Source: Escherichia coli (GTDB lineage Bacteria > Pseudomonadota > Gammaproteobacteria > Enterobacterales > Enterobacteriaceae). From it: a DNA stretch of 64,000 bases. Positions within the stretch are counted from its first letter, which is position 1. Every line of letters begins with the position of its first letter. The notes under the pieces are model-generated. The model saw only the letters and a list, made by a program, of their open reading frames with translations. It was not told where the DNA came from and searched no databases. A program made the position numbers and the translations under genes. This document shows positions 9,937-63,728 of the stretch, one piece after another. The stretch lies in NCBI RefSeq assembly GCF_003991155.1, contig NZ_CP031293.1, one strand, 5' to 3'.

Positions 9937-10024
9937 ATTCTGAATTAACGTTAATTTCTCTTCCAGATCTTTCCAGTAACGCTTTTATTATTTTCTATTT
10001 TTAGCTGGACTTTCCCTGTATTTA

Positions 10025-10040: not shown

Positions 10041-10047
10041 GTATTTA

Positions 10048-10456: not shown

Positions 10457-10497
10457 GTTTCTCTCCCCTTCCCCATACGGAAAGGGGAATTGCCCCC

Positions 10498-10662: not shown

Positions 10663-10838
10663 CTGCTGCCTCCTCATCTTTCAGAGGCTTCATCATCCGC
10701 CTTCTGGCAGCTCACAATACAGATGCAAATATTAGTTTTATTTAACATACAGACAGGTTAAAACAGCATCTGCATCCGGTTTTTTAGCCTCATCTGTACC
10801 GGTTTTTCCCTCTGTATGGTCCAAATAAGGAATACAGC

Positions 10839-12251: not shown

Positions 12252-12368
12252 ATTCGAAATAGTGGCGAGCCCCCTGATTTCCTCTCACGAATAGCGTGTG
12301 ACTCGTTTTATCTTTGCAGGGTCATCTCCACGTTCCAGTATGGCTTAGGCAAATTGCGCTTCGTTCAT

Positions 12369-12467
12369 GCCGGATGCCATGTGAACGCCTTACCAGGTCT
12401 ACAAAATTTTTAAAGTTCAATATATTGAATGGGTTATGTAGACCTGATAAGCGTAGCACATCAGGCA
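12369..12467. repeat. REP/BIME-like pair of inverted palindromic units
   Basis: GCCGGATGCCATGTGAACGCCTTACCAGGTCTAC and an inverted partner GTAGACCTGATAAGCGTAGCACATCAGGCA in the yjiR-rpnD intergenic region. Confidence 0.55.
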
Positions 12468-44836: not shown

Positions 44837-45823
44837 ATGAACGCAATAATATCGCCCGATTATTACTATGTTCTTACCGTTGCTGGTCAGTCTAATGCCA
44901 TGGCGTATGGCGAAGGACTGCCATTACCGGACAGGGAAGATGCGCCTCATTCCAGAATTAAACAATTAGCGAGATTTGCGCATACGCATCCCGGAGGCCC
45001 GTCATGTCACTTTAACGACATTATTCCACTGACTCACTGCCCACACGATGTTCAGGATATGCAGGGTTATCACCATCCTCTGGCAACGAATCATCAAACA
45101 CAGTACGGCACCGTTGGCCAGGCACTGCATATAGCACGGAAATTACTGCCCTTCATTCCTGATAATGCAGGGATTCTCATCGTTCCGTGTTGCCGTGGCG
45201 GATCGGCTTTTACCGCAGGCAGCGAAGGGACATATTCAGAACGGCACGGAGCCAGCCATGATGCTTGTCGTTGGGGAACGGATACTCCGCTATACCAGGA
45301 TTTAGTCAGCAGAACGCGAGCCGCACTGGCAAAAAATCCGCAGAACAAATTCCTCGGCGTATGCTGGATGCAAGGCGAATTTGACTTAATGACCAGTGAC
45401 TACGCGTCACACCCTCAACACTTTAATCATATGGTTGAAGCCTTTCGTAGGGATCTAAAACAATACCATTCTCAGCTTAATAATATTACTGACGCACCGT
45501 GGTTTTGCGGCGATACCACCTGGTACTGGAAAGAAAAATTCCCTCATGCGTATGAAGCGATTTATGGCAATTATCAAAATAATGTTTTAGCCAATATTAT
45601 TTTCGTCGACTTCCAGCAACAAGGTGAAAGAGGACTGACGAACGCGCCTGATGAAGATCCGGACGATTTAAGCACGGGATATTACGGTTCAGCGTACCGG
45701 TCACCGGAGAACTGGACGACGGCACTGCGAAGCAGTCATTTCAGCGCGGCAGCCCGTCGGGGGATTATTTCTGACAGGTTTGTAGAAGCAATTTTGCGTT
45801 TGTCACATTTTCACAAAGAATAG
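44837..45823 (+). CDS. nanS: 9-O-acetyl-N-acetylneuraminate esterase (SGNH/DUF303)
   Basis: From ATG 44837 (MNAIISPDYYYVLTVAGQSNAMA...); ORF track begins at 44810. Confidence 0.8.
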   Translation: MNAIISPDYYYVLTVAGQSNAMAYGEGLPLPDREDAPHSRIKQLARFAHTHPGGPSCHFNDIIPLTHCPHDVQDMQGYHHPLATNHQTQYGTVGQALHIARKLLPFIPDNAGILIVPCCRGGSAFTAGSEGTYSERHGASHDACRWGTDTPLYQDLVSRTRAALAKNPQNKFLGVCWMQGEFDLMTSDYASHPQHFNHMVEAFRRDLKQYHSQLNNITDAPWFCGDTTWYWKEKFPHAYEAIYGNYQNNVLANIIFVDFQQQGERGLTNAPDEDPDDLSTGYYGSAYRSPENWTTALRSSHFSAAARRGIISDRFVEAILRLSHFHKE

Positions 45824-45872
45824 TACACGCTATTCCTTGTGCAATCAGGCCAACTCGCAATAAAGGCAGCAA

Positions 45873-46567
45873 CTATGCTTGAAGCCCCTTCCCCGCCGGA
45901 TAAATAATATCCTTACGGCAATTGGTAACCGTATAAAAGGCCTGATGTTTTGAACTGCCGTTGACGGAGATGAAGTAATCTGCTTTTTTGGCAGCATCCA
46001 ATAACGCATCAATGGCAACGCGATCATTGTTGAGCTCAATTCATAGCGCTGGATACAATTTCAATAAGGCGTCTTTACCACGTTGCGTGGCATTTTTGTA
46101 ATACTGTAAAACACCCGCTTTTTCCCGCGGAGATTCCGATACAACGGAGACGTTACGCTTGCTGGTATGGTTTCTGTCGGGAGGGTACTACCGATATCCT
46201 TACAAGCGTAGAGCTGTTCCATCATGCGTGCCAACAACAACATACGGATATCCAACCGTTCCCAGCGACGTAGGAACATCTCGCGAATGTTAATCCAGTA
46301 CTGTAGTCGGCGATCGCTATCACCAGATTCACAATCATAAAGAACCTCTGCAATATCAAGAGTATACTTGAGAATTTATGTCGATTCATTTTTCGTGCAC
46401 AACATTTCGATAGCTTCGAGGGCATCATGGTATTCTTTGTGACTGAAGGTCCATGAAAGTAACGTATCGAGAATAATCCCTGTAGTTGCCAAAATGAGTT
46501 GATCACTACACAATGATTTGTTTGTACAGAAGGAACGATTATTATATGTTCTTGTAGGGCAGAGCAC
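45873..46567 (-). pseudogene. Degraded gene remnant (internal stops and one frameshift), possibly yjhR-like
   Basis: Minus-strand translation runs ...SWTFSHKEYHDALEAIEMLCTKNEST-stop-ILKYTLDIAEVLYDCESGDSDRRLQYWINIREMFLRRWERLDIRMLLLARMMEQLYA... then shifts frame to ...YYKNATQRGKDALLKLYPAL-stop-IELNNDRVAIDALLDAAKKADYFISVNGSSKHQAFYTV...; four overlapping short ORFs in the track. Confidence 0.45.
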
Positions 46568-46684
46568 GTTGCTACCGTAACAGCGTTGAAGATAATTTGG
46601 CCGAGACTGTAGTGGCCCAGTTTAAAAGGTAGCAGAATTTTAAAAGTGTCAGGTGCATAGAATTAAAAAAATGGAACTATAAAA

Positions 46685-48418
46685 ATGGAAATCATATTAC
46701 CAAAAAACACCTTATATGACAGAGAGCAAAATGTCTTTTTTGAAAAGGTTACGGCCTTAATTGGCGAAAATGGTGCTGGTAAGTCCTCGATTTTACAATC
46801 CGTATTTATTAACTGTTTAACAAAAAAATATCTACCAGAAACAAAGGTTGTTTGTTTTTCTTCTGGACAAAATGAGAAATACTCAACGTACTTCTCTGAT
46901 TATCTTTCTCATGAAAGGCAAGCAAATAGAGGTCTTAACTTAGATTGTTGTTATTACGATAAATCATGGTCAAAGTTACTAATATTCATATCCACAATTT
47001 GTAAATCAAATGGTCTTGTTAGAAATTTTTTATGTGAGAAAGGCTATATTGATGTATCAGATGATAAAAATGATGATATATCAAGCAAGCTTACATTGAC
47101 GGTCCGAGTAAATTCGGCTTACGTTAATCGAGTAAAAATGGCATTAGCACAAGAAGAACAAGGTATTGAAAATACTTTAAGGTATTCAGCTTATCATAGG
47201 ACTTTAGAAAGTTTCATTAATAATATTGTTAATGCTGATTATGATTTCGAGTCTCCACTTGAAGCTCAAGAGATCTTGCTAACTCATTCAAATTTTTTCA
47301 ATCCATCATTTGAGGAAGCAGAAGATTCCTTTTTTGATCCTATCATAACATTTTTCACTCAAGCAGCAGATAATGATTACTTTATAATAAAACCATCATT
47401 ACAGCTAGAGTTTAAAAATAATATCGAACTGAATGATATTAGTGATGGGGAATATCAAGTACTCTTTTTATACTCTCTGCTTGATATTTTTGATAGTCCT
47501 AATACTTTATTCTTATTAGATGAGATAGATTCCCATTTACATTACAAGAATATTGAGCTCTTATGGCATCGACTACATAGTATTAATGGTTATGCGATAA
47601 CAACCACCCATCTATTAGACTCAATTACAGCTACTGATAATGATTTTAAAAACTTAAAGATTGTTGATAAAGGAAAAATAAAAGAAGATGATAAAATAAA
47701 AACTATAATAGAACGTTTATCTGTCTTGACAAGAATATCAGACGTACAGTTCGAAGTGTGTCGTAAACTAGAAAACATAGTATTGATGGATGATTATAAT
47801 GATTGGACTATTTTTTATGCCTTAGCAAAGAAAAAAGGACTTGATGTATCAAAGTTAGATGGCCTCCATGCAATAAAACAGTCCTCTGGTTACGATAATT
47901 TAAATCAAGAGTTCGCAAAACCAAAAATAGAGTGGATTAATTCGCTTTTAAATGTAAATACTGATAAAAAAGTCAAAAGAATATTCATGATCTGCGACAA
48001 AGATGAGGCTCCAATTACCTATCAGAAAGATGGAGTTCAAGTCAATGGAAGTGAATATTCAAAACATATAGCGAAGTTAGAAAATAAAAACAAAAATAAA
48101 ATATATCTCCTTGCATGGAAAAGAAGAGAAATAAAAAACTACTTACTATCTTATACGGCATTGTCCCATCATGGATTTATCGAGCAAATAAACAATGGAG
48201 ATCTGCCAGCTAACAGTTATTTAAAAGAAAACGATCCTGGAGATAATTCAGCAATTAGCCGGCTTAACGTAAAACATTGCATCACAAAAATAATTGATTC
48301 TGATGGTATAGGATTAGATATATCAAAACTTTACTCATATATAGAACTTATACCACCTGCTGAGATCAGTGAAGATATAGTGAACATGTACAATTTTTTG
48401 GTGGAGAAATTAAAATGA
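46685..48418 (+). CDS. OLD/PARIS-like ABC-type ATPase (AAA_15/21-like) with C-terminal Toprim-like (RloB/DUF4435-like) domain
   Basis: 577 aa; Walker A LIGENGAGKSSIL, Walker B/D-loop LFLLDEIDSHLH, C-terminal DxD-type motif IFMICDKDE; very AT-rich coding sequence; stop overlaps the next gene's start (ATGA). Confidence 0.6.
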   Translation: MEIILPKNTLYDREQNVFFEKVTALIGENGAGKSSILQSVFINCLTKKYLPETKVVCFSSGQNEKYSTYFSDYLSHERQANRGLNLDCCYYDKSWSKLLIFISTICKSNGLVRNFLCEKGYIDVSDDKNDDISSKLTLTVRVNSAYVNRVKMALAQEEQGIENTLRYSAYHRTLESFINNIVNADYDFESPLEAQEILLTHSNFFNPSFEEAEDSFFDPIITFFTQAADNDYFIIKPSLQLEFKNNIELNDISDGEYQVLFLYSLLDIFDSPNTLFLLDEIDSHLHYKNIELLWHRLHSINGYAITTTHLLDSITATDNDFKNLKIVDKGKIKEDDKIKTIIERLSVLTRISDVQFEVCRKLENIVLMDDYNDWTIFYALAKKKGLDVSKLDGLHAIKQSSGYDNLNQEFAKPKIEWINSLLNVNTDKKVKRIFMICDKDEAPITYQKDGVQVNGSEYSKHIAKLENKNKNKIYLLAWKRREIKNYLLSYTALSHHGFIEQINNGDLPANSYLKENDPGDNSAISRLNVKHCITKIIDSDGIGLDISKLYSYIELIPPAEISEDIVNMYNFLVEKLK

Positions 48419-50322
48419 ACACCTCTTTATTTGAAGATCTACTTACACTAATCAAGAAAAAGAGTTCGATAAGGAATACAGAACAAGCAGTAGAGTTAAT
48501 TTCATTATTTATTTTTTTACATTATATAAAATTATATCTTTATGAAAATGATAAAAGATTTTCAGATATAAAAAACATATCAAGCAACAACATTAATGAA
48601 ATTAAATATTATTATCAGCAACTATATGAAAGTTTTATTTTCTCGATAGATATAAAAAATATAAACCACGACATGCTTGAAAAGCTCAGGAGTAAGATAG
48701 GTTTTTTAATTAATAACATCAATGACCATGAAATAATTAAATATATAGATTATTCTATTTCGCAGATACATTCACTTACAGAATTCTATCAATATGCAAA
48801 TTCTTATCAATCTTTAATTCTTAGGATGGTTAATGAATCGGGTCGTTCAGGTGAATATGTTACTCCATCTGCTTTAGTTCAGCTCATGGTTGAAATGTTA
48901 TCACCTACAGATGGCACATCAATCTACGACCCCGCATGTGGAACTGGGGGTTTATTAATAGAGTCAGCACGATATATTAAAGGCAACAGTTTAAACAAAA
49001 ACTTAAATTTAAATTATTCCCTTATTGGTAATGACACATCATCATTTGCCTGTCTAATCTCAATTGTTAACCTTTTAATCAATAAAGAATTTAATTTTGA
49101 AATAATACTAAAAGATAGCTTAGATATAAATTATAAGAATACAAAATATGACTTTATTTTAACTAACCCACCATTTGGGAAAAAGAGCGGTTGGGATAAT
49201 ATTCATATTGACACACATTATAAAGGACCTAATCTAGACTATTACTTCCTGGAGCATGTTATTGACTCTCTCGCTGTTAATGGCAAAGCAGCCATAATAT
49301 TACCAGAGCGTTTTTTATATGATGTGAGTAAAGAGTGCATCACTCTTAAAGATAAGATCTTCCAAAATTATAATTTAGATTGTATTTTATCTATACCGTC
49401 AGGTGCATTGCTTCCTTACACTGCAGTAAAATTATGTATTCTTTTTATAAGTAATCCTGGCCCAACAGATAGAATATTTTTCTACAATTTAAATAATGGT
49501 GAAAAATACTCACGTACAAATATTATAAAATTCGATGATTTTATAGATTTTTTAGAGTCAGCAAAAAATAGAACAATAACTGAACACTCCTGGATTATCA
49601 ATATTAGTGATACACCTTCATCTTATAACTTACTCTTAAAAGATAAAGAGCGAAACTCATATGAGTTTCTTAGTGATTCTATAGTTAACATTGAACAGAC
49701 AATACGTAATAATGAATTATTACTAACAGAGTTGTCTTTATTAAGAGAAAAAATAGCAATCTTAGAGTCAACAATAAAAAATCATTCGCATGAATATGAA
49801 TTTGAGAGACTTAAAGTTGGAAATATTGCAATAGTAAAATCCGGAAATTTATTACAAAAAAACAGGCTGTTACCCACTGGACCAATTCCTGTATACGGTG
49901 GAAATGGAGTTATTGGATATAACAATGAGGCAATGGTAAATGGTGAAAATATTATTATTGGTAAGGTCGGAGCTCTTTGCGGAAACGTTCGGTATGTTCA
50001 AGGTGATATTTGGGTGACAAATAACTCATTAATTATTAAGAATTATTTACCAAATAAAGTTTTAACACCCTACCTTGCAAAGTTATTATCTACTTTAAAC
50101 TTAAGAAAGCTCGCCGTTGGTACCGCTCAACAATATTTAACCACAACACAAATAAAAAATGTAGAAATTAGCATTCCACCTTTAACGACCCAGCATAAAT
50201 TAAATATGTGGCTTGATGAGTTAGATAATACCCTTGAACAATATAATAAGCTCATTGAAAAAATAATGAATGATAAGCGAGAACTTAAAGAGAATTTGTA
50301 TAAAGGTCTTTTAATAGAATAG
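48415..50322 (+). CDS. HsdM-like N6-adenine DNA methyltransferase fused to one HsdS-type target-recognition domain (M-S fusion)
   Basis: 635 aa; motif X EYVTP, motif I DPACGTGG, motif IV TNPPFG; C-terminal ~180 aa resemble a single TRD plus HsdS conserved helix (KVGNIAIVKSGN ... VTNNSLIIKN ... TTQHKLNMWLDELD); AT-rich; translationally coupled to the upstream gene. Confidence 0.7.
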   Translation: MNTSLFEDLLTLIKKKSSIRNTEQAVELISLFIFLHYIKLYLYENDKRFSDIKNISSNNINEIKYYYQQLYESFIFSIDIKNINHDMLEKLRSKIGFLINNINDHEIIKYIDYSISQIHSLTEFYQYANSYQSLILRMVNESGRSGEYVTPSALVQLMVEMLSPTDGTSIYDPACGTGGLLIESARYIKGNSLNKNLNLNYSLIGNDTSSFACLISIVNLLINKEFNFEIILKDSLDINYKNTKYDFILTNPPFGKKSGWDNIHIDTHYKGPNLDYYFLEHVIDSLAVNGKAAIILPERFLYDVSKECITLKDKIFQNYNLDCILSIPSGALLPYTAVKLCILFISNPGPTDRIFFYNLNNGEKYSRTNIIKFDDFIDFLESAKNRTITEHSWIINISDTPSSYNLLLKDKERNSYEFLSDSIVNIEQTIRNNELLLTELSLLREKIAILESTIKNHSHEYEFERLKVGNIAIVKSGNLLQKNRLLPTGPIPVYGGNGVIGYNNEAMVNGENIIIGKVGALCGNVRYVQGDIWVTNNSLIIKNYLPNKVLTPYLAKLLSTLNLRKLAVGTAQQYLTTTQIKNVEISIPPLTTQHKLNMWLDELDNTLEQYNKLIEKIMNDKRELKENLYKGLLIE

Positions 50323-50330
50323 ATCACAAT

Positions 50331-50357
50331 AGCAGGGTGTCCATAAAACACCCTGCT
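50331..50357. terminator. Hairpin between the convergent M-S fusion gene and hsdR
   Basis: AGCAGGGTG-TCCATAAAA-CACCCTGCT stem-loop. Confidence 0.45.
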
Positions 50358-50402
50358 ACTGGTTGCAAGTAAGTTGCAATATCTGTACTGCTGAAGCTAC
50401 TA

Positions 50403-53400
50403 TTAATAATGCTCCTCAATATACCCATACGCCTTCTGGAACAACTCTTTATCTTTCCCTAGTCCAAACTGGGCCAAGGTCAGTAAAAGCGCCTTTTGGA
50501 TTTCGCGCGGGCCACTGTTGGAATTTTGCCAGCCATCAAAGCGGGTAGCTTTCACAATTTTATCAATTTGCTCTACAACATCACCGATTAACTTAGGGGT
50601 AGTTTCCGGACGTGTTTCGAGGAAAAGCTTAGTCAACGCCTGTTTATTATCAGCTTCAGTTACTGGGCGCTCGCCCGTTTCGCGCTCGGCTTGAACGGTA
50701 TCTTTCGCTGCATCCAACAGGCCTTTCAACCAGTCAATGGCCTTGATAACACCAGCTTCATAGTCCTGACGCAGTTTTTCAAGGCGCTCGCCCAATGCCA
50801 CAAATTTAGGATCATGACTGCCGCGCAAACGTCCCATAAGATCAATCTCCAGGCGTTTGGCACGTTGTTCCTGCTCTTTAGCGGTCAGGGTAAAAATAGC
50901 GTGCTCGTCCATAACCAACTCGTCAATATCATCGCGAATACGATTGATATCAGTATGCTCATGGATCATCTTGATTGTTTCGGGGCCAAGGGCAGCCCAA
51001 ACAAGCGCACCTGTCTGCCCTACCGGACGCACCGATTCATAAATTTGCGCCAGCCATTTATAGTCCTGACGATAAGAGGTCAAAAAAGGATCTGGGTTGA
51101 TAGCTGACCATAACTTGGATAACACACCAAAGCTGGCAGCGAATTCATCGCGTTTCTCGTTGGTCGGCAGGCATTCCTGCGCGGCCATAATACCTTCAAA
51201 ACCAGCTATGGACCGATCCACACCAGGGAAGAAGGACAAACATTTATTCAGTTGTAACGGCAATAGCTCTTTAAATGCCTCAATTCCCTCTACAACTCCT
51301 TCAATTTCTTCAGGGTTATAGGCCAGAGCGGTACGCAGATTTTCGAAAACGCCGAGGTAGTCGATAATTAATCCCATGTCCTTGCGTACAGTATCGGTTT
51401 CGTACAACCGGTTGGTTCGGCACATGGCCTGAAGAAGAGTATGATCGCGTAGAGGCTTATCGAGGTACATGCAGTAGCAAATCGGGGCATCAAAACCCGT
51501 AAGCAGCTTGGCGGTTACGATAATAAGCTGTAATGGATGTTCAGGATCTTTAAAGCATTCAATCAGATCCTTTTGCACCTGTTCTTCGGCATCAATGTGC
51601 TGCCAGCGTTCAAAATCGACTTGTTTGACTGGCAGCTCCAACTCATCATGCCATTTAAGCCAATCCTTGTTGAGCTTGTCTTTTTTGCCACCCTCTTCAA
51701 CTTTAACCGGAGCCTGGTCAACGTTCATAACCACTTCAACCGCATCAAAACCAAGCTTTTCACCGAGCAAATAATACATCTGCACACAGGCTTCGCGATC
51801 GTATACCACAACCATGCCTTTCATCTTTTTCGGCATAACATGGTTGGTAAAATGCTCAGCAATATCATTACTCACCGCAGCCATACGCCTAGGGGATTTC
51901 AGCATGATTGCCAGCTTGCCTGCACGCCTGGACAATGCTGCTTTTTCTTCTTCATCCAGGTTGTTTTCGGTAGCCAGTTGCTCGAACTCTTCATTGATGG
52001 CATCACGATCCACTCGGAGTTCAGCCAGCCGAGGTTCGAACTTCACCGGGTTAGTTGCGCCATCCCGGATCGACTGCTTATAGCTATAGCGGCTCATATA
52101 GCGACCTGGATCTTCTTCGGCACCGAACAATTTGAACGTATTACGATCAATGCCAGAAATCGGAGTACCAGTCAGGCCATAGAAGTGGGCATTGGGCAAC
52201 GCCCAGCGCATTTTCTCGCCTAATCCCCCTTCCTGTGTACGGTGAGCTTCGTCAACCAACACAATGATATTGTCCCGGTTGTTCAGGCCATTAGGGTTGC
52301 TATCGTCAATTTCGATATCTTTAAATTTAAAGATGGTGGTGATTAAAATGCCACGGCTGTCTTGTTCTATGTATTCACCCAACTTTTTGCAGCTTTGCAC
52401 TTTAATCAGATTCTTAACGTCGGCTCCGCCAAAGGTCTCGTTAATTTGGCTGTCCAGATCTCGCCGGTCCACAACGATAAGTACCGTCGGGTTTTTTAAC
52501 GCATTATCGGCACGTAGCATTTTGGCGGCGTAAAGCATCAACAAGGATTTACCCGATCCCTGGAAATGCCAAATAAGACCTTTTTTTGGATAGCCTCTGC
52601 GAACACGCTCAACAATTTGTTTTGCAGCTTCAAATTGCGGATAACGCGGCAGGATTTTAACGCGTTTAGGTGGAGTATTTTTGCCCGTTTTGACGGTTGA
52701 AAATAATGCAAAAGATTCAAGTAACTGCAATAAGGTTTGTGGATTTAACAAACTCTCACAGCTGTTGAGTACCGATGCTAATCCCGGCAGAATTTCATCA
52801 CGAAGCTCAGTATTATGCCAGGGCCCCCAGTCTTTAACTCTGGCATTAATGGCACCATAGGCAAAGGTTTTTCCTTCGCTGGCAAAGCACAGCAAGTTAG
52901 GTACAAAGAAAGATTCAACATTTTTCCAGTAGTACTTTTTGCCACCCATGAAATCGGCAGCACCGTCTTGCCAGGTCACGCTGGGGCGTGTTGCGGTTTT
53001 AACTTCGCCCACTACTAGCGGTATGCCGTTCACATAAAGAACAATATCAAAATAGACTTCAGTGGCCGCGATATAGCGAACCTGCTGCGCCACCACAAAG
53101 TGGTTGTTCTCTATATTGTCAAAATCAATCAGATTGATGGTGATATGGTCGCCATTCTTACCAAAAGGCAAGGTTTTGTCGGCCATCAACCATTCCTGGA
53201 AGTTTTCATTGGCCTTTACCAAGCCGGTATGGCGGGCTTCTAAAACCACTCCTCGCAGTTTGTAAATGACCTCATCGGCATAGTCAGGCTGTCTGCCGAT
53301 ATCAGGGTTTAACGAACAAAGCGCGTCTTTTAGCCACTCATCAACGAAGATATCCTGCGCTTGTTTAGGCAGGTTTTCACCGTGGCAGTAAGTCCACTTG

Positions 53401-53465
53401 ACTCCGCTTAAACCTTTTAAACGGTCGATAATTCCATTTTCTGTGACGGTTTGTTCGTTAAACAA
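50403..53465 (-). CDS. hsdR: Type I restriction enzyme R subunit
   Basis: 1020 aa; SF2 helicase motifs (GSGKSLLMLYAA Walker A, VLVDEAHRTQ DEAH box); last gene of a tightly packed four-gene operon. Confidence 0.9.
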   Translation of the reverse strand: MFNEQTVTENGIIDRLKGLSGVKWTYCHGENLPKQAQDIFVDEWLKDALCSLNPDIGRQPDYADEVIYKLRGVVLEARHTGLVKANENFQEWLMADKTLPFGKNGDHITINLIDFDNIENNHFVVAQQVRYIAATEVYFDIVLYVNGIPLVVGEVKTATRPSVTWQDGAADFMGGKKYYWKNVESFFVPNLLCFASEGKTFAYGAINARVKDWGPWHNTELRDEILPGLASVLNSCESLLNPQTLLQLLESFALFSTVKTGKNTPPKRVKILPRYPQFEAAKQIVERVRRGYPKKGLIWHFQGSGKSLLMLYAAKMLRADNALKNPTVLIVVDRRDLDSQINETFGGADVKNLIKVQSCKKLGEYIEQDSRGILITTIFKFKDIEIDDSNPNGLNNRDNIIVLVDEAHRTQEGGLGEKMRWALPNAHFYGLTGTPISGIDRNTFKLFGAEEDPGRYMSRYSYKQSIRDGATNPVKFEPRLAELRVDRDAINEEFEQLATENNLDEEEKAALSRRAGKLAIMLKSPRRMAAVSNDIAEHFTNHVMPKKMKGMVVVYDREACVQMYYLLGEKLGFDAVEVVMNVDQAPVKVEEGGKKDKLNKDWLKWHDELELPVKQVDFERWQHIDAEEQVQKDLIECFKDPEHPLQLIIVTAKLLTGFDAPICYCMYLDKPLRDHTLLQAMCRTNRLYETDTVRKDMGLIIDYLGVFENLRTALAYNPEEIEGVVEGIEAFKELLPLQLNKCLSFFPGVDRSIAGFEGIMAAQECLPTNEKRDEFAASFGVLSKLWSAINPDPFLTSYRQDYKWLAQIYESVRPVGQTGALVWAALGPETIKMIHEHTDINRIRDDIDELVMDEHAIFTLTAKEQEQRAKRLEIDLMGRLRGSHDPKFVALGERLEKLRQDYEAGVIKAIDWLKGLLDAAKDTVQAERETGERPVTEADNKQALTKLFLETRPETTPKLIGDVVEQIDKIVKATRFDGWQNSNSGPREIQKALLLTLAQFGLGKDKELFQKAYGYIEEHY

Positions 53466-53466
53466 T

Positions 53467-54633
53467 TTATTGTCCCCTCAGAAGAATATTCAAATAACTG
53501 GACTTGAGTTTACGAATTTTTTGAAGCCTTGATTTAGCTTCTCTATAACTGTTTTCGGCTAAATGTAATATATCCTTATATTTCCCAAGCTCTCTTGATG
53601 GTGGTATAACCATCTTCTGAGAATGTACATCGGCATCATTAACAGCCGGGAAACTTGTACCAACTGCCAAATTGGTTAATGAATAAGTGAATTGCTTCGA
53701 CAAAGTGAAATAATAAATAAAATCGGACAAATCATTTTTTGCCCTTAGAACAGTAAAACCTGTTGATGCTATTGAATCATTCAATATTTCAGACACATAA
53801 AACGTAGCTCTATGATTGGGTCTAACAGTGCTAACAACAATATCTTTTTCCTTAAGAATACGCCGAGCTCGGCTGGGGGCTTCAGCGAAATGGTATTCTT
53901 TAGGAGTATCGACAAAACCAGGAAAAGTCACTGAAGATATATCTATATACCTAATCAGCTTATTTTTATTGGCATCATTACTTAACAAGTCAAAATTAAT
54001 ATTTGATACATCCTTCAATCTAACTTTGTTATATCCAAATGGCAGTTTTTCTTTTCGATCAAATGTAGTCAACCGATCAATTAATCTTTGAAATAAATTT
54101 AATGCAGACCTTTCAGTCTCATTTGCACAATGTAATACTTGTTCGATTTTTTTTAAAGAATTTAAAAAATCAACTTGCAGATCCATTTCAGGAATAATAA
54201 ATTCCTGCTGACTTAAAACTTTCCATTTTATCGTTGGAGACAATGACCCCTCCGAAATTGCTACTGCACGATTCATGAAAGTATCAGACTGCATAATAAA
54301 GGGTAAAAACTCAGGTATTACAGTATTTGAATTTGCCTCCAGAACCATGGCATGAGCCGAACAGATACAATCCCAATCTGCTACCGCGACTTTACGTTGA
54401 TAAGCACGACGCTTACCAAAAATAATCTGGCCTTTTTTCACTAAAAGCTTCTGCCCTTCAACGTCACTGGGTGTACCATGACGTTTGATTTTCAGGCTGT
54501 CAGGGTCTAAATGCTCCAAACCGACATAAATTTCAAGGTCTGTCTCGCTCGGTTCCACTCGTTTAGAGATATGTTTAGCGATATCGCCAAACTTCACCAT
54601 TTGCCAGCCTTCAGGTAATTGCTGTTCTGTCAT
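53467..54633 (-). CDS. hsdS: Type I R-M specificity subunit (two TRDs)
   Basis: 388 aa with two TRD-like halves separated by a conserved central region; AT-rich; abuts hsdM2 and hsdR. Confidence 0.85.
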   Translation of the reverse strand: MTEQQLPEGWQMVKFGDIAKHISKRVEPSETDLEIYVGLEHLDPDSLKIKRHGTPSDVEGQKLLVKKGQIIFGKRRAYQRKVAVADWDCICSAHAMVLEANSNTVIPEFLPFIMQSDTFMNRAVAISEGSLSPTIKWKVLSQQEFIIPEMDLQVDFLNSLKKIEQVLHCANETERSALNLFQRLIDRLTTFDRKEKLPFGYNKVRLKDVSNINFDLLSNDANKNKLIRYIDISSVTFPGFVDTPKEYHFAEAPSRARRILKEKDIVVSTVRPNHRATFYVSEILNDSIASTGFTVLRAKNDLSDFIYYFTLSKQFTYSLTNLAVGTSFPAVNDADVHSQKMVIPPSRELGKYKDILHLAENSYREAKSRLQKIRKLKSSYLNILLRGQ

Positions 54634-56133
54634 TTACTGCTCCACCTTGCTTTCAACGTTATATCCAAGCTCTGCAAGGCTCTGGAATAATTTATTAGTT
54701 TGCTTTTTCAACTGAGTACGGCTTACTTTCCACGCTTCAATCGCATGTTCAATATTATGTACTTCAGCGTTGTTTTGTGCTTGCACATACAGTGGAATTG
54801 AAAGGTTATAAAGGTTTTCTTTAATAGCTTCAATATTCACTAAAGAGGTTATATCGTTTTTTTTCTCCGGATTAAAATAAGCCTCGCATAATACCTCCAA
54901 ATCCTCATCGGATAAGCGACTATGAGCGCGTTCACGGGTAACATGCTCAACCCCGTTGATAAATAACACTTTATTTTTGCGTTCGGCAGGTTTATTGCAA
55001 TTAAGCACCACCACACAAGATTCCATCGGCGAGTTATAAAACAGATTTGGTCCCAAACCAATCACCGCTTCAATAATGTCCGATTCAATCACCTGTTTAC
55101 GAATGGCCTGCTCAGAATCACGGAACAGCACACCGTGTGGCCAGAGCATAGCAGCACGACCGGTATCGGGTTTTAAACTTTTAATTATATGGGTATAAAA
55201 AGCATAATCAGCGCAGCCCTGCGGTGGGACACCATAAAGATTTCGACCATACGGATCAGCAGCAAACTTGTCACGATTCCATTTTTTAATGGAGTACGGT
55301 GGGTTGGCAAAAATCACATCAAACTGCTTGAGCCGATCGTTTTCAATAAACTTTGGCTCAGCCAAAGTATCACCACGCAGCACATCAAACTCTTCAATAT
55401 CGTGCAGGAACATATTCATACGGGCGATTGCGGATGTCAGCAGGTTCACTTCCTGACCATAAAGGTGCACAGAGCGCCACTCTTCCCCTCTAGCACGCAG
55501 ATCCATCACTGCATTTAGCAACATCCCACCTGTGCCACACGTTGGATCATAGGCGGTTTCACCCGGTTTTAAGCCCATAATGCGCGTCATTAAATGCACG
55601 ACTGTTCGGTTGGTGTAGAACTCTGCTGCCGTATGACCGGAATCATCAGCGAACTTTTTAATCAGGTATTCGTAGGCCTCACCAAGATCATCCTGAGCGA
55701 CAGATTTAATGCCTAGCGGAATTTGACTGAAATGTTCAATCAGATCAGCCAGCAGATGATCGGGCAGGCGCTCTTTATTGGTCCACTGCGCATCACCGAA
55801 GACGCCATGTAAACGCGGATTATTGGCTTCAATTAGTCGAAGCGCATTCTGGATCGCTTCACCAATGTTTTTACTGGTATTGCGTACCTTTTCCCAACTG
55901 GCTTCAGAGGGAATGTTGAAACGGTGAAACATCGGCATGGCGGCATATTCAGCATCACCTTCATGGAGTTCCAGCGCTTCGTTATATTCTTCCAGATAGA
56001 CATCTGACAGGCGTTTGTAAAACAGCAACGGGAAGATATACTGCTTGTAGTCTGATGCGTCAATTTGGCCACGAAGAAATTCGGCGGCTCCCCAGAGCAG
56101 CTCTTCCAGCTTTTTATTACTCATAGTACTCAT
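54634..56133 (-). CDS. hsdM: Type I R-M methyltransferase subunit, paralogue 2 (motif X variant FYTNR)
   Basis: 499 aa; HsdM_N (DASDYKQYIFPLLFYKRLSDVY), DPTCGTGG, ANPPYS; start overlaps the stop of the upstream hsdM paralogue (ATGA). Confidence 0.85.
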   Translation of the reverse strand: MSTMSNKKLEELLWGAAEFLRGQIDASDYKQYIFPLLFYKRLSDVYLEEYNEALELHEGDAEYAAMPMFHRFNIPSEASWEKVRNTSKNIGEAIQNALRLIEANNPRLHGVFGDAQWTNKERLPDHLLADLIEHFSQIPLGIKSVAQDDLGEAYEYLIKKFADDSGHTAAEFYTNRTVVHLMTRIMGLKPGETAYDPTCGTGGMLLNAVMDLRARGEEWRSVHLYGQEVNLLTSAIARMNMFLHDIEEFDVLRGDTLAEPKFIENDRLKQFDVIFANPPYSIKKWNRDKFAADPYGRNLYGVPPQGCADYAFYTHIIKSLKPDTGRAAMLWPHGVLFRDSEQAIRKQVIESDIIEAVIGLGPNLFYNSPMESCVVVLNCNKPAERKNKVLFINGVEHVTRERAHSRLSDEDLEVLCEAYFNPEKKNDITSLVNIEAIKENLYNLSIPLYVQAQNNAEVHNIEHAIEAWKVSRTQLKKQTNKLFQSLAELGYNVESKVEQ

Positions 56134-57629
56134 ACCTCGAAACCTTCTTTGATAAGCAGGGCCTCCAGCTCCTCTTCTGCTTTTTCCAGCTCAGCCAGCT
56201 TCCGTTGAAAATCTTTGAGCGCCTCTTCCACAGTGATGGTTTCTTCTTCGAGTGGCTTTTGCACATAACGAGCAATATTTAGATTGAAGTCATTTTCTTC
56301 AATCTCCTTCAGAGAAACCCAGCGTGCAACGCCTTCGATTTCTTTTGCATCTGGCCCTTGTTGCGCCTGGTCATGATAGATTTGGTATATTTCATCGGCC
56401 TGCTTGTTGGACAGCGTATTCTGCGCACGTCCCTTGGTATAGATTTCTTCAGCATTGATGATCAATACATGATCTTTATGCGCGGCCGGACGTGATTTAC
56501 GCAGCACCAAAATACACGCAGGAATCCCAGTCCCATAGAACAGGTTGGAAGCAACACCAATAATCGCCACAATGCGATTCTCTTGCAGTAATTTGGTTCG
56601 AATTGCCCCCTCTGCGCCGCCACGAAACAGCACACCATGAGGTAATACGACTGCCATACGTCCATTGTCGTTAAGTGAAGCAAACATATGCTGCACCCAG
56701 GCAAAATCACCATTTGTTTTAGGCGCCAGGCCATATTGCTTACGGCCATAGGGATCGTTCGACCACAGATCGTATCCCCATTCTTTTAAGCTAAATGGTG
56801 GGTTGGCAACAACGCAGTCAAAGGTTTCTAAACGATCGCTTTTTAAAAATTTAGGTTCGCGTAAAGTATCCCCTCGGACAATATCGAAATCTTCCTGTCC
56901 ATGCAGGAACAGATTCATACGCGCAATAGCTTCCGTCGTTAAGTTCTTTTCCTGACCCTTGATTTTTAGTAAACGCGGATCACCACCATTTTCTTTTACA
57001 TGGTGGATGGTCTCAAGCAGCATACCACCGGTACCACAGGCGGGATCGTAGACACTCTCACCGGCTTTTGGATCAAGAATGTTAACCATCAAACGAACGA
57101 TAGTTCGTGGGGTATAGAACTCACCGGCTTTCTTATTGGCTTTGTCTGCAAAGCGTTTGATCAGATACTCGTATGCGCGCCCCATATCATCGTCACGGAC
57201 ACTAGAAACGCCAAGGTTCACCTTATTGAAGTGATTGAGTAACGTAGCCAGTAACTCATCAGAAAGGCGTTCTTTATTGGTCCAGCTGGCATCGCCAAAA
57301 ATGCCATGCAGTTTAGGGTTTGCCAGTTCTATACCACGGAAGGACTCTTTTAAAGCCTGACCGATGTCCTTGGTCTCAGCGAAAACATCGCGCCAGTGGC
57401 AATTTTCAGGTATCTGAATACGGTGAAACATCTTGCCCTTGGCAAGCTCTGCATCCCCAATGCTCTCCATCGCATCGGCAAATTCTTCGTCATACACGTC
57501 ACAAATGCGCTTGAAGAACAGGATGGGGAAAATGTACGTTTTGTAATCTGACGCATCAATGGGCCCTGTAATAATATGGGCTGCATGCCATAGATGGGCC
57601 TCGAGATCTTTTAGGTTAATCAGTGTCAT
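56130..57629 (-). CDS. hsdM: Type I R-M methyltransferase subunit, paralogue 1
   Basis: 499 aa from ATG 57629 (MTLINLKDLEAHLW...); DASDYKTYIFPILFFKRICDVY, GEFYTPR, DPACGTGG, ANPPFS; ORF track extends to 57731. Confidence 0.85.
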   Translation of the reverse strand: MTLINLKDLEAHLWHAAHIITGPIDASDYKTYIFPILFFKRICDVYDEEFADAMESIGDAELAKGKMFHRIQIPENCHWRDVFAETKDIGQALKESFRGIELANPKLHGIFGDASWTNKERLSDELLATLLNHFNKVNLGVSSVRDDDMGRAYEYLIKRFADKANKKAGEFYTPRTIVRLMVNILDPKAGESVYDPACGTGGMLLETIHHVKENGGDPRLLKIKGQEKNLTTEAIARMNLFLHGQEDFDIVRGDTLREPKFLKSDRLETFDCVVANPPFSLKEWGYDLWSNDPYGRKQYGLAPKTNGDFAWVQHMFASLNDNGRMAVVLPHGVLFRGGAEGAIRTKLLQENRIVAIIGVASNLFYGTGIPACILVLRKSRPAAHKDHVLIINAEEIYTKGRAQNTLSNKQADEIYQIYHDQAQQGPDAKEIEGVARWVSLKEIEENDFNLNIARYVQKPLEEETITVEEALKDFQRKLAELEKAEEELEALLIKEGFEV

Positions 57630-57872
57630 TGTTGTCTCTTTTCGATCCTGCAGTGCTTGAACTCTCAGCAACTCATGGATTTCACAGTAAAAAAGCAAGT
57701 AAAGCGATTCCACAACCACCTGAGCGTTCAATATGTATGACGCCTTTACCCAAGTTGCTTAAATCAAGGAAATTGCCAGAGATAATACTCTGGCATCAGA
57801 ATGATACCAAGTTGAAGGGCTGATTTCCGCATCAATACCTTGTGGTAATAGGGGATTACTCTTTTACCCTTA

Positions 57873-58910
57873 TTGGCGCAAAATGGCGGCATTTCCTCAT
57901 TTCTCCATCGGAGCATCTTACGCGCTATAACCACTCTCGTTTTTTCCTATTCCCATGCAGATGAAGCACTACGCAATGAACTTGAGAAGCATCTCTCCCC
58001 GCTGAAGCGAACCGGGAAGATCACAACATGGCACGATCGCCGCATCGTTCCTGGTCAGGAGTTCGAACGTCAGATCGACCACTATTTTTCGCAAGCAGAT
58101 ATCATCCTGATCCTGATCAGCAGTGACTTTATTGCTTCTGATTACTGCTATCAGGTAGAGATGAAAAACGCACTGGAACGGCATAACCGGGGCGAGGCAG
58201 TGGTCATTCCGGTAATTTTAAGAGACTGTGCATGGCATCAGTTAGAATTCGGCAGCATTATGGCGGCGACTATCGACGGTAAACCCATCACTAAGTTTGC
58301 CACCCACGATGAAGGCTACGTTCAGGTCGTCGAGGCTGTCTCGCGTGCCATTGCCCGGATGGAAGCCAAAAAACCACAGCAAACCATACATATCCCTTCA
58401 CCGGCTCCGGCGAATCCGATCTTTCAGGGAGTAGATTCCGTTTTTACACCGCGTTCAAGCAACCTTACTCTACCCAAGAAATTTACCGATCTGGATAAAG
58501 ATCGTGCCAGACGTGAGGGCTTTGAATATGTTGCCCGCTATTTTGAAAATTCGTTAGATGAACTCAAAAAGCGCCACCCCGGATTAGATATCGATTTTAA
58601 TCGGCTTGATACAGATTCATTCACCTGTGCCGTGTATATCAATGGCAGTAAGGTCGGCCAATGTGGCATCTGGCGAGGCAATCAACATCATGGAATGGGA
58701 GATATCTGTTATAGCCAGGATAATGTTGTTCGAAACAGTATTAACGAAACTCTAAGCCTTGCTGATAACGGCCAGACTCTTGGTTTTCGTGCTCTGATGG
58801 GAGGCTTCAGTCGAGGAACTTCACGAGACGAACTATTGACCAATGAAGGTATGTCGGAACATCTCTGGGAAATGTTCTTCGGGCTAATCAAGCAAAGAAT
58901 GTCCCGATAA
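57873..58910 (+). CDS. TIR-domain protein with uncharacterised C-terminal domain
   Basis: 345 aa; N-terminal ~150 aa show bacterial TIR pattern (VFSYSHADEALRNELEKHL ... ADIILILISSDFIASDYCYQVEMKNALERH); remaining ~190 aa not recognised. Confidence 0.65.
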   Translation: MAQNGGISSFLHRSILRAITTLVFSYSHADEALRNELEKHLSPLKRTGKITTWHDRRIVPGQEFERQIDHYFSQADIILILISSDFIASDYCYQVEMKNALERHNRGEAVVIPVILRDCAWHQLEFGSIMAATIDGKPITKFATHDEGYVQVVEAVSRAIARMEAKKPQQTIHIPSPAPANPIFQGVDSVFTPRSSNLTLPKKFTDLDKDRARREGFEYVARYFENSLDELKKRHPGLDIDFNRLDTDSFTCAVYINGSKVGQCGIWRGNQHHGMGDICYSQDNVVRNSINETLSLADNGQTLGFRALMGGFSRGTSRDELLTNEGMSEHLWEMFFGLIKQRMSR

Positions 58911-59094
58911 TTTGCCATATCACAGTCGGGCATACTGCCCGATTTTTGTGCTGTCATTATTGGCAATATCTCAATAGGCGTTGAGAAATGGTGCAATTTA
59001 ATCTTGCCAGAGCGCTGTTACTTGGGGACGAAATTAATGGGCTCCTGCTGTAGTTACAGCAACGCCTGTAAATACAAAAATAGGCGTTGCAAAT

Positions 59095-60150
59095 TCATGC
59101 TGGCAAATACGTTTTCTTAAGCGGCACCAATAGCTTAGTCTCTATATCCACTTGCTCATAGTTTTCAACTAACGCGCGTACCAAATCATCCAGCGTCCAT
59201 AGCGTCAACGGGATTGTAGAACGATCGGCCTCATAACGCGCATCCTTGCTGAATCCGCCGGTACTGACATACAGCCCGCGATCGTCTTTATGGCGGCCAC
59301 CGATAAAGCTACGGATTTGCTGGCTGCTCATCTGTTCCCGCCGGTGCTTCACCTCAACAATAATGCGCGGATTTTCAAACCCAAATCCGTCAGGCGAAGC
59401 AATGATGTCTTTCCCACGGTCAGCACCCGCAGGCGATACCTGAGTTTTATATCCCATGCTGCGTAACACGCCAGCGACCAGATTCTGCATCTCATCCCAG
59501 TCGAGACGGTTGATACGATCCTTGATGCCTTCAAAAGCGATCATTTCCATGTCGCGCAGAGGATTAGAAACGACCTCATCCTCTTCACCTGAAACAGGTA
59601 CTTCCGGCACGATATCTGAGACAGGCTTATTGCCCTGCACTAATTCATTCACAGCAAAATCAGGCACCTGAAAAACTGTCAGCGTTGAACCAAGGGTGTT
59701 TCTAGTTGCATCACTCAGACTATCGCGCTTAATCTCTTCCGCATTCCACTTCACTTTACGGGCGATGCCCATGCCATCTTCAAGCCACTCGGCATGAAAC
59801 TCAAAATCTGACGCTATTTTCCCTATTAAATAGGTCCGATTAGAAGGTGAATAAGTGATAGCCCAGTCGCCTTTCTGCATTTCATTCACAAAGCGCCAGA
59901 CCTGAGAAGCTCCAGAACGAACTGTGCCTGGCTTAGTCTGTGGCTCAAGCTCCTGATACCGGGTAAACAACTGCTCTCTTGAGCATCCAGGTTTCACATA
60001 GGGAGCGAGCTGCGACCAACCAATTGCAACAACCTGTTTGTCTCTGAAGTCGTCGTACAATTTTCCGCCATCACCGCGGATCATCCACATCTTAGTCGCC
60101 ACAATAATTCCTTCTGAAAATACTTCATCGTTATACCGGGACGTGATCAT
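59095..60150 (-). CDS. Putative modification-dependent restriction endonuclease: PUA/EVE-like N-terminal domain fused to Mrr-type catalytic domain
   Basis: C-terminus has the Mrr core (GADRGKDIIAS ... IIVEVKHRRE ... YVSTGGFS); N-terminus has EVE-like pattern (VWRFVNEMQKGDWAITYS ... YLIGKIA); ATG 60150 has SD AAGGTGG (ORF track starts at 60183). Confidence 0.6.
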   Translation of the reverse strand: MITSRYNDEVFSEGIIVATKMWMIRGDGGKLYDDFRDKQVVAIGWSQLAPYVKPGCSREQLFTRYQELEPQTKPGTVRSGASQVWRFVNEMQKGDWAITYSPSNRTYLIGKIASDFEFHAEWLEDGMGIARKVKWNAEEIKRDSLSDATRNTLGSTLTVFQVPDFAVNELVQGNKPVSDIVPEVPVSGEEDEVVSNPLRDMEMIAFEGIKDRINRLDWDEMQNLVAGVLRSMGYKTQVSPAGADRGKDIIASPDGFGFENPRIIVEVKHRREQMSSQQIRSFIGGRHKDDRGLYVSTGGFSKDARYEADRSTIPLTLWTLDDLVRALVENYEQVDIETKLLVPLKKTYLPA

Positions 60151-60212
60151 TCCATTCAGCCACCTTATCCAGGGGAAAAACACCGATAAGATGGCTAATC
60201 AAAATGTCTGTT

Positions 60213-63200: not shown

Positions 63201-63728
63201 TTGACGCCACTCCTGCTGCAAGGCTGCATATCGTGCTTCCCGTTCTTCATCCGTTTCGGCAGTCTTATCAATGCTGTCATCAAAGTTGATAGAGAACGAG
63301 GTATGGATTGTCTTGTATTTGTCATACTGCCCAATATCACCAATCGAAAATGCTCCTTTTGGCAAAGGTTCAAGCAGGTCTCTGGGAATGGAGGTCGCTG
63401 GCGTCGGATATAAAAAACCCTCACGGCTTAGCAAGGCTGGCGTCACTAGCGGGGTAACAATATCAGGTGCGCCTGCGGAACGGTCCTTACCATGCTGCAG
63501 TAACCGAAAATAAACTTTTGGGCGCAAGACGACATCGACCGTTTCGACATCGTCTTTTTCTCCCTCAAAAAATTTACTGACAATCGCTTCGTCAAGACGT
63601 CCCGCCGCTATCCCATGCCAGTGAGTGAAATTTTTGGCGTCTTTCCGTTCAAAACTGCCCTTTCCTGACTCAGCATCTGCAAGCGAGTTGCGCCAGTATG
63701 AGGCAAACCCTAAAGCATTTTCATCCAT
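60213..63728 (-). CDS. SF1 (Upf1/Dna2-like) helicase fused to C-terminal PLD-family nuclease; type II Mokosh-like
   Basis: 1171 aa; Walker [14 protein letters not shown], Walker [11 protein letters not shown], helicase C-terminal motifs ([17 protein letters not shown]), PLD HxK(x)4D motif [21 protein letters not shown]. Confidence 0.7.

What the first reader, a model, noticed from the sequence alone, without database searches (positions are those of the whole stretch)
45873..46567. Decaying gene at the island junction
A single minus-strand reading frame is interrupted by a TAA, then continues after a +1 shift and a TGA. The product is not recognisable by eye. In K-12 a pseudogene (yjhR) occupies the equivalent position next to nanS, so this may be the same relic, or a gene disrupted when the island was acquired.
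Basis: seen in the sequence. Interest (0 to 1): 0.3.

Follow-up and report, generated by a model that had tools for sequence, protein, structure and literature searches.

The report
Broken remnant of defence gene dpdD
The broken reading frame next to nanS is the dead last third of dpdD, a gene of the Dpd DNA-modification and restriction system, left at the edge of the E. coli leuX island hotspot after other defence genes took over; it is an ordinary pseudogene and is not the K-12 yjhR relic.

Summary
On the minus strand, one ancestral frame carries TAA (46378-46376), a 1-bp frame change in an A-run (46097-46092) and TGA (46043-46041).

Three independent profile sets identify it as the C-terminal ~210 residues of DpdD, which is ~715 aa when intact. 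DpdD belongs to the Dpd 7-deazaguanine restriction-modification system.

The remnant runs from 46480 to 45845, followed by a conserved hairpin to about 45813. The first ~500 codons are missing. I found two more 1-bp deletions near the 3' end.

The truncation point coincides with a drop in GC from ~45% to ~30%. That drop marks the start of an AAA-ATPase and methyltransferase module.

The same haplotype is present in 102 of 5426 complete E. coli genomes. Some lesions occur in all 11 alleles I aligned; others vary between alleles. They are therefore not sequencing errors, and decay is continuing.

K-12 yjhR is unrelated. It is the C-terminal third of a Mokosh MkoC gene.

Intact dpd clusters in an Enterobacter-like genome carry dpdD as the last gene, next to the core genes on the far side. 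The Salmonella Montevideo dpd cluster sits at leuX. The best reading is a fossil of an earlier Dpd island. It is ordinary and of low interest.

The parts
45845..46480 (-). 5'-truncated, multiply broken 3' remnant of dpdD. It corresponds to about residues 505-715 of an intact DpdD of ~715 aa.
   Evidence: NCBIfam NF041061 profile positions 496-697 of 704, E = 1.7e-37. PADLOC DpdD positions 516-725 of 729, E = 1.3e-66. Own profile positions 509-709. Full-length relatives match at their residues ~504-713. DNA alignment to the C. koseri dpdD covers 46480 to 45813.
46376..46378 (-). TAA nonsense codon. It is CAA (Gln) in C. koseri and in 6 of the 11 E. coli alleles aligned.
   Evidence: The exact TAA 34-mer occurs in 62 of the 102 carrier genomes.
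46092..46097 (-). 1-bp deletion in or next to an A5 run (ACAAAAATGCC), which changes the frame. Present in all 11 alleles aligned.
   Evidence: tblastn frame switch. DNA alignment gap against C. koseri. No polymorphism at this site.
46041..46043 (-). TGA nonsense codon. It is TCA (Ser) in the Citrobacter and Enterobacter sequences. Present in all 11 alleles.
45885..45894 (-). 1-bp deletion in GGGGAAGGGG, a second frame change. Two of the 11 alleles (L007, L021) still have the extra A.
   Evidence: The exact deleted-state 35-mer occurs in 89 of 102 genomes.
45858..45859 (-). 1-bp deletion (TTTATT-GCGAG versus TTTATTCGTGAG), a third frame change. Present in all 11 alleles.
45845..45847 (-). Ancestral dpdD stop codon TGA, now out of frame.
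   Evidence: Alignment with the L004 and L016 gene ends.
45814..45838 (.). 12-bp stem-loop that followed the dpdD stop and is conserved in the Enterobacter copy. On the + strand it now spans the nanS stop codon (TAG 45821-45823).
   Evidence: Fold energy -14.8 kcal/mol, z = -5.0. The L004 counterpart folds at -18.7 kcal/mol, z = -5.9. Sequence comparison.
45797..45813 (.). Junction between core and island. K-12 homology ends at about 45801 and dpdD-lineage homology ends at 45813. The last 8 codons of nanS are encoded by island-side DNA.
46481..46684 (.). AT-rich spacer upstream of the AAA-ATPase gene with no detectable dpdD homology. The finding's upper 87 nt fall here.
44837..45823 (+). nanS, the core gene that borders the leuX hotspot. 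It converges on the remnant.
46685..50322 (+). AAA-ATPase plus N6-methyltransferase/specificity fusion at ~30% GC. This is the module whose start coincides with the truncation of dpdD.
   Evidence: It is present in the same 102 genomes as the remnant.

Best explanation
The region is a non-functional remnant of dpdD, a gene of the Dpd 7-deazaguanine DNA modification and restriction system. Only the last ~30% of the gene survives (46480 to 45845), together with its downstream hairpin.

It does nothing as a protein. The first ~500 codons and the native start are gone. What remains carries two nonsense codons and three 1-bp deletions in this strain.

Most likely history (inferred): a Dpd island once occupied the interval between tRNA-Leu(CAA) leuX and nanS, either in an ancestor of these strains or in the donor of this haplotype. 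In that island dpdD was the last gene, reading away from leuX. Everything on the leuX side of codon ~505 was then replaced by other defence cargo, beginning with the AT-rich AAA-ATPase and methyltransferase module. The stub left behind has been decaying neutrally since.

Lesions present in every allele examined are older. These are the truncation, the A-run deletion, TCA to TGA, and the 45859/45858 deletion. Lesions that vary between alleles are younger. These are CAA to TAA, the 45894-45885 deletion, and indels or stops private to single alleles.
For: Identity (shown):
- Three independent DpdD profile sets hit only the C-terminal ~210 positions.
- A search of 1.84 billion representative proteins gave 526 hits. 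Almost all are 700-760 aa and match at their C-terminal end.
- Another member of the same 90% protein cluster is already named 'protein DpdD, partial [Escherichia coli]' by NCBI.

Truncation (shown):
- DNA and profile homology both start exactly at 46480.
- GC falls from ~45% to ~30% at that point.
- All 102 carrier genomes have the remnant and the ATPase module contiguous, which implies a single origin event.

Decay (shown):
- Five lesions relative to the C. koseri gene.
- TAA is present in 5 of 11 alleles and the 45894-45885 deletion in 9 of 11.
- Extra lesions are private to some alleles: +T at 46345 in L006 and L022, a 1-bp loss at 45989 in L005, and TAT to TAA at 46053 in L007.
- PGAP leaves the region unannotated in most genomes.

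Once a functional gene (shown):
- Divergence from the C. koseri allele has dN/dS = 0.09, with differences of 45:26:88 by codon position.
- Within E. coli the polymorphisms fall 7:5:8 by codon position, with 12 non-synonymous and 8 synonymous changes, two of them nonsense.

Setting:
- The island lies between nanS and tRNA-Leu(CAA). This is the known leuX hotspot, bordered by nanS (bioRxiv 10.1101/2020.03.26.007484).
- The S. Montevideo dpd cluster is inserted at leuX (PMC5699537).
- In the intact clusters L009-L011, dpdD is the terminal gene next to the core genes on the far side. That flank is 83.6% identical to the Enterobacter flank of L012.
- L012 has a second truncated DpdD fragment in a leuX island, in the same orientation relative to the tRNA.
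Against: - No intact close orthologue was found. The best full-length relative is only 46% identical. A word-indexed search of 5.8 billion clusters returned only fragments. GTDB species representatives gave nothing. The ancestral ORF therefore cannot be fully reconstructed, and the donor lineage is unsampled.
- No other dpd gene fragment was detected. I profile-scanned the window only for DpdD, not for DpdA-C or DpdE-K.
- No complete E. coli genome showed a dpdD detectable by blastn other than this remnant. Whether E. coli itself ever held a full Dpd island is therefore inference.
- The within-species codon-position test is underpowered (20 sites; p = 0.35 against the selected pattern).
- Letter-order naming of the S. 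Montevideo genes suggests dpdD is not terminal there. I could not check this because the primary paper is not held.
Confidence: 0.9

Rival explanations
1. It is the same relic as the K-12 pseudogene yjhR, only more diverged.
For: It has the same position and orientation: the 3' end of a gene converging on nanS at the hotspot border.
Against: There is no sequence similarity by blastn or tblastx. yjhR belongs to a different family, Mokosh MkoC with a helicase C-terminus and a PLD nuclease. The remnant is DpdD.
Confidence: 0.01
2. The gene is intact and the stops and shifts are sequencing or assembly errors.
For: Three of the lesions are single-base deletions in or next to homopolymer runs, the kind of site where sequencing errors occur.
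Against: The identical sequence occurs in dozens of independently sequenced complete genomes. Even with every lesion repaired, the gene would lack its first ~500 codons.
Confidence: 0.01
3. The stub was already truncated and decaying when a composite defence island carrying it entered E. coli from another enterobacterium. On this reading E. coli never hosted a working Dpd system. This is a rival about the history only, not about what the sequence is.
For: No E. coli complete genome has another dpdD detectable by blastn. The remnant and the ATPase module are always linked. Similar stubs exist in Enterobacter, Citrobacter and Salmonella leuX-type islands.
Against: The stub abuts E. coli nanS directly, about 12 nt beyond its own hairpin, so the far end of the dpd island was joined to the nanS core sequence. 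A donor with a nanS-like flank would be needed. Younger lesions are polymorphic within E. coli, so at least part of the decay happened there.
Confidence: 0.3
4. The fragment is kept for a function. It could act as a stand-alone DpdD C-terminal domain protein, or as non-coding sequence: a stem-loop ending nanS transcription, or a promoter region for the ATPase module.
For: A 250-aa uninterrupted C-terminal DpdD ORF is conserved in Enterobacter (P0153, on at least 22 contigs). The hairpin is conserved and now spans the nanS stop codon. Alleles without TAA encode ORFs of 143-168 aa that some pipelines call.
Against: All 11 E. coli alleles share the frameshift that cuts off the best-conserved last 70 residues. 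The start codon lies in non-homologous sequence. New stops and indels keep arising. There is no Rfam match. The hairpin is not followed by a T-run.
Confidence: 0.05

Closest known systems
DpdD of the Dpd (dpdA-dpdK) 7-deazaguanine DNA modification and restriction system (Salmonella enterica serovar Montevideo; NCBIfam NF041061, Pfam PF28109, PADLOC DpdD)
   Same: The sequence is homologous to the C-terminal ~210 residues. It lies in the leuX hotspot, where the S. Montevideo cluster also sits (PMC5699537).
   Different: Only ~30% of the gene is present. It is broken by two stops and three 1-bp deletions, and no dpdA-C or dpdE-K genes accompany it. The nearest intact protein is only 46% identical. 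The role of DpdD itself is unknown beyond its assignment to the restriction part of the system (PMC10164549).
Truncated DpdD fragments of Enterobacter asburiae, Citrobacter koseri, Salmonella and some E. coli (cluster of P0001/P0153, 250 aa)
   Same: They cover the same part of the gene, at 71% amino-acid and 74.5% nucleotide identity. They have the same downstream hairpin and the same leuX-island setting and orientation.
   Different: It is a different allele, which diverged under purifying selection (dN/dS 0.09). The truncation point differs (profile position ~460 versus ~505). The ORF is uninterrupted in Enterobacter. The neighbours differ and include queD/PTPS. The C. koseri copy is cut by a contig end and may be full length.
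yjhR pseudogene of E. coli K-12
   Same: It is the same type of object at the same place: a 5'-truncated 3' remnant of a defence gene that converges on nanS at the border of the leuX hotspot.
   Different: It comes from a different gene family, Mokosh type II MkoC, and shows no sequence similarity to this remnant.

Membership tests
DpdD (NF041061 / PF28109 / PADLOC DpdD) | Significant sequence similarity to the family profile | tested here: met
   E = 1.7e-37, E = 1.3e-66, and E = 1.5e-22 plus 2e-30 in a six-frame scan. The match covers only profile positions ~496-709.
DpdD (NF041061 / PF28109 / PADLOC DpdD) | Full-length match reaching the curated equivalog cut-off (300 bits; ~700-760 aa protein) | tested here: not met
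   The score is 129.7 bits against a cut-off of 300. Nothing in the window matches profile positions 1-508.
DpdD (NF041061 / PF28109 / PADLOC DpdD) | Uninterrupted open reading frame with its own start | tested here: not met
   There are two in-frame stops, three 1-bp deletions and a 5' truncation.
Dpd system (dpdA-K cluster) | Co-location with dpdA, dpdB, dpdC and the dpdE-K genes | tested here: not met
   None of the genes annotated between nanS and leuX is a dpd gene. PADLOC scans of seven island proteins gave type I RM, a ThsB-like protein, PDC-S02, MkoC and AriA/mad3-like hits, and no Dpd hit. I did not run profile scans for decayed fragments of dpdA-C or dpdE-K.
Dpd system (dpdA-K cluster) | dPreQ0/dADG modification of genomic DNA and restriction of unmodified DNA | not testable with these tools
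   This needs LC-MS of the strain's DNA and transformation assays. Both are expected to be negative, because dpdA-C are absent.
yjhR / Mokosh MkoC remnant | Sequence similarity to yjhR or MkoC | tested here: not met
   tblastx found nothing significant. The repaired remnant hits only DpdD models in PADLOC.

The most novel reading that the evidence does not exclude
C-terminal DpdD stubs recur at leuX-type islands in at least four enterobacterial genera, and in Enterobacter the stub is an uninterrupted 250-aa ORF. The least ordinary reading not excluded is that the DpdD C-terminal domain has a stand-alone activity that favours its retention, for example as a decoy or modulator of Dpd-type restriction. 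On this reading the E. coli copy is a recently inactivated version of such a mini-gene, not just debris.
Probability: 0.05. Interest if true: 0.4.

Novelty: already known. Interest (0 to 1): 0.12.

Why it matters
Its main value is for annotation and bookkeeping. The ~650 bp between nanS and the ATPase gene, left blank by PGAP in most of the 102 carrier genomes, can be labelled 'dpdD pseudogene fragment'. The equation with yjhR should be dropped.

It also gives a small, concrete example of how defence cargo turns over at the E. coli leuX hotspot. In these strains a Dpd island gave way to an ATPase and methyltransferase module with type I RM, a ThsB-like gene and Mokosh. In K-12 a Mokosh gene gave way to KpLE2 cargo. 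In both cases the 3' stub of the previous occupant stays next to nanS. Such stubs could be mined to reconstruct the order in which systems occupied a hotspot.

Finally, it is a caution for defence-system finders. Short DpdD hits like this one, and the 148-position PADLOC DpdD model, should not be counted as Dpd systems.

Tried and rejected
- **Pfam (local copy):** no hit for the remnant, for P0001 or for the full-length P0005. The copy evidently lacks PF28109, so this says nothing.
- **Word-indexed protein search:** it returned only four fragments and no intact relative.
- **Peptide-pattern scan of 100,044 GTDB species genomes:** no confirmed relative.
- **PDB sequence search with full-length DpdD:** nothing.
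- **Rfam at permissive threshold on 45600-46900:** nothing.
- **Repeat search for target-site duplications or IS ends around the AT-rich module (45700-50700):** only chance-level short repeats.
- **Promoter and terminator scan:** near background.
- **Thiaville et al. 2016 (PMC4801273):** not held, so I could not verify the gene order of the S. Montevideo cluster.
- **Distant blastn for other dpdD alleles in complete E. coli genomes:** only the same 102 loci.
- **Codon-position test of within-species polymorphism:** consistent with neutrality, but too few sites to be decisive.

Full report
**Setting.** The window is E. coli chromosome. It contains the fim genes, nanC-nanM-nanS (nanS on the + strand, 44837-45823), and then a block of defence genes that runs to tRNA-Leu(CAA) leuX just beyond the window end. 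The nan operon and ahr/leuX are the published borders of the E. coli leuX insertion hotspot (bioRxiv 10.1101/2020.03.26.007484). The finding lies in the 860-bp gap between nanS and the first island gene. PGAP leaves this gap unannotated in most genomes.

**Observation.**
- An ORF starts at GTG 46567 and ends at TAA 46378-46376.
- The same frame continues to about 46094.
- The sense then moves to another frame, which is interrupted by TGA 46043-46041 and closed by TAG at 45875-45873.

**Identity.**
- The joined translation has no hit in the local Pfam copy. It does match the NCBIfam equivalog model for DpdD (NF041061) at E = 1.7e-37, covering profile positions 496-697 of 704.
- After repair of the lesions it matches PADLOC DpdD PDLC02826 at E = 1.3e-66, positions 516-725 of 729.
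- An exhaustive HMMER search of 1.84 billion representative proteins gave 526 hits. Almost all are 700-760 aa and align to the query through their last ~210 residues. The best full-length protein, P0005 (716 aa), is 46% identical over its residues 504-713. The database labels these proteins PF28109:DpdD.
- I built a profile from 40 of the full-length proteins and scanned the whole window in six frames. The only significant hits were 46480-46097 (profile 509-638, E = 1.5e-22) and 46094-45885 (profile 640-709, E = 2e-30). A weak co-linear tail covered 45897-45856.
- One member of the same 90% cluster as the E. coli ORF fragments is already named 'protein DpdD, partial [Escherichia coli]' by NCBI.
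- DpdD belongs to the dpdA-dpdK cluster. DpdA/B/C install dPreQ0 and dADG in DNA, and DpdD-K are assigned to restriction (PMC10164549).

**Extent and lesions.** The closest sequences are C-terminal DpdD fragments from Enterobacter, Citrobacter and Salmonella (P0001/P0153, 250 aa, and P0158, 308 aa and cut by a contig end). They are 71% identical in amino acids and 74.5% in nucleotides. A base-by-base alignment with the C. koseri gene runs from window 46480 to 45813. Relative to that gene the window has:
1. No homology upstream of 46480, so about 500 codons are missing.
2. TAA for CAA at 46378-46376.
3. A 1-bp deletion in or next to the A-run at 46097-46092.
4. TGA for TCA at 46043-46041.
5. 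A 1-bp deletion in GGGGAAGGGG at 45894-45885.
6. A 1-bp deletion at 45859/45858.

The ancestral stop is TGA 45847-45845. A 12-bp-stem hairpin at 45838-45814 follows it and is conserved in the Enterobacter copy.

**The truncation point.** GC content is 45-47% across the remnant. It falls to about 30% from ~46450 to ~50350 and then returns to 44-50%. The AT-rich block encodes an AAA-ATPase (AriA/mad3/PtuA-like) and an N6-methyltransferase fused to a specificity domain. In complete E. coli genomes this block and the remnant occur in exactly the same 102 of 5426 genomes, and they are always contiguous. This points to a single truncation event. No flanking repeats hint at the mechanism.

**Not sequencing error; decay is ongoing.**
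- Fifty genomes are at least 99% identical over the 801 bp, and many are 100% identical.
- I aligned 11 alleles. The truncation, the A-run deletion, the TGA and the 45859/45858 deletion are present in all 11.
- TAA is present in 5 of 11. The exact TAA 34-mer occurs in 62 of 102 genomes.
- The 45894-45885 deletion is present in 9 of 11. The exact 35-mer occurs in 89 of 102 genomes.
- Some alleles carry further private lesions: +T at 46345 in L006 and L022, a 1-bp loss at 45989 in L005, and TAT to TAA at 46053 in L007.
- Within E. coli, the 20 polymorphic sites fall 7:5:8 on codon positions 1:2:3, with 12 non-synonymous and 8 synonymous changes. This fits neutrality, but the sample is too small to exclude the selected pattern (p = 0.35).
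- Divergence from the C. koseri allele is strongly biased to third positions (45:26:88) with dN/dS = 0.09. The two alleles therefore separated while both were working genes, and the inactivation is comparatively recent.

**Junction with the core.** K-12 homology ends at window 45801. The K-12 NanS protein ends ...AILQFWRER. The window's NanS ends ...AILRLSHFHKE, and its stop codon lies inside the old dpdD hairpin. dpdD-lineage homology reaches 45813. The core-island joint is therefore within 45797-45813, and the last eight nanS codons are island-derived.

**Comparison with yjhR.** K-12 yjhR occupies the same position and orientation but is unrelated. blastn and tblastx show no significant similarity. 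yjhR matches PADLOC MkoC at 3.8e-139, profile positions 812-1135 of 1136. It is 67% identical to residues 834-1171 of the intact 1171-aa MkoC encoded at window 60213-63728. That yjhR is a Mokosh protein is already in the literature (bioRxiv 10.1101/2022.12.12.520048).

**History (inference).**
- The S. Montevideo dpd cluster is inserted at leuX (PMC5699537).
- In three contigs with an intact cluster (L009-L011) the gene order is ...DpdG, H, I, J, K(PLD), DpdD. dpdD is last and lies ~900 bp from core genes. Those core genes are 83.6% identical to the far-side flank of an Enterobacter asburiae leuX island (L012).
- L012 carries tRNA-Leu(CAA), an integrase, unrelated cargo, and a truncated DpdD fragment that reads away from the tRNA.
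- The E. coli remnant has the same relation to leuX: it is the last feature of the island, it reads away from the tRNA, and it abuts the core gene on the far side.
- The simplest account is that a leuX-integrated Dpd island had everything on the tRNA side of dpdD codon ~505 replaced by other defence genes.
- Whether this happened in E. coli or in a donor cannot be decided. No complete E. coli genome has another blastn-detectable dpdD. No intact close orthologue exists in the protein collections or in GTDB representative genomes.

**Function.** None is expected. The native start and ~70% of the protein are missing. Every allele lacks the reading frame for the best-conserved last 70 residues, and new stops keep appearing. 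There is no Rfam family and no convincing promoter or terminator signal. A residual possibility is that the hairpin or the stub matters for nanS 3'-end formation, or that DpdD C-terminal fragments have a life of their own, given the intact 250-aa ORF in Enterobacter. I give this about 5%.

**Verdict.** It is an ordinary pseudogene fragment of a known family that NCBI already names in at least one assembly. Interest is low. It has minor value as a datable trace of defence-system turnover at the leuX hotspot.

Noticed in passing
L002:5016-6032 (K-12 yjhR) versus window 60213-63728 (- strand): K-12 yjhR is the C-terminal 338 aa of a Mokosh type II MkoC. It is 67% identical to residues 834-1171 of the intact 1171-aa MkoC in this window. 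Both K-12 and this strain therefore keep a 3' stub of a different defence gene pointing at nanS. The Mokosh identity of yjhR is already published.
   Followed up: yes
window 45797-45823: The 3' end of nanS is chimeric. The last 8 codons and the stop differ from K-12 (RLSHFHKE* versus QFWRER*) and are encoded by island-side DNA. The stop codon sits in the former dpdD hairpin. Other island haplotypes probably give NanS other tails.
   Followed up: partly
window 46481-50350: A two-gene module at ~30% GC, made of an AAA-ATPase (AriA/mad3/PtuA-like) and an N6-methyltransferase fused to a type I specificity domain. The nearest plasmid homologues of the ATPase are in Vibrio, Salinivibrio and Shewanella at 42-52% identity. 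It looks like a methylation-associated defence pair that has not been characterised.
   Followed up: partly
window 50403-63728: The rest of the island is all defence cargo: type I RM with two tandem hsdM genes (54634-56124 and 56130-57629), a ThsB-like TIR protein (57927-58910) with no ThsA nearby, a PDC-S02 restriction-endonuclease-like gene (59095-60084), and MkoC. No integrase is annotated between nanS and leuX.
   Followed up: partly
PADLOC model PDLC02837: One PADLOC 'DpdD' model is only 148 positions long and matches the remnant's residues 66-209 end to end (E = 1.9e-53). It seems to have been built from fragments like this one and could produce spurious partial Dpd calls.
   Followed up: no
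L012:10001-11151, also L013-L016: In Enterobacter and Citrobacter the truncated DpdD fragment is followed, on the opposite strand, by a PTPS/QueD-family gene (preQ0 pathway). A TraI_2_C fragment lies upstream. This may be further debris of a dpd/preQ0 island.
   Followed up: no
L018 (NZ_CP116100.1 2252525-2253925): In strain DETEC-P881 no nanS CDS is annotated upstream of the remnant; only a 57-bp hypothetical ORF is. nanS may be disrupted or rearranged in that genome.
   Followed up: no
L005 (NZ_AP042570.1), locus 8825-12464: In strain OkiPb01695 the ATPase gene is shorter (1416 bp). The methyltransferase is split into separate HsdM-family and S-subunit ORFs, and fimC is frameshifted. This suggests decay of the neighbouring module too, or lower assembly quality.
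   Followed up: no
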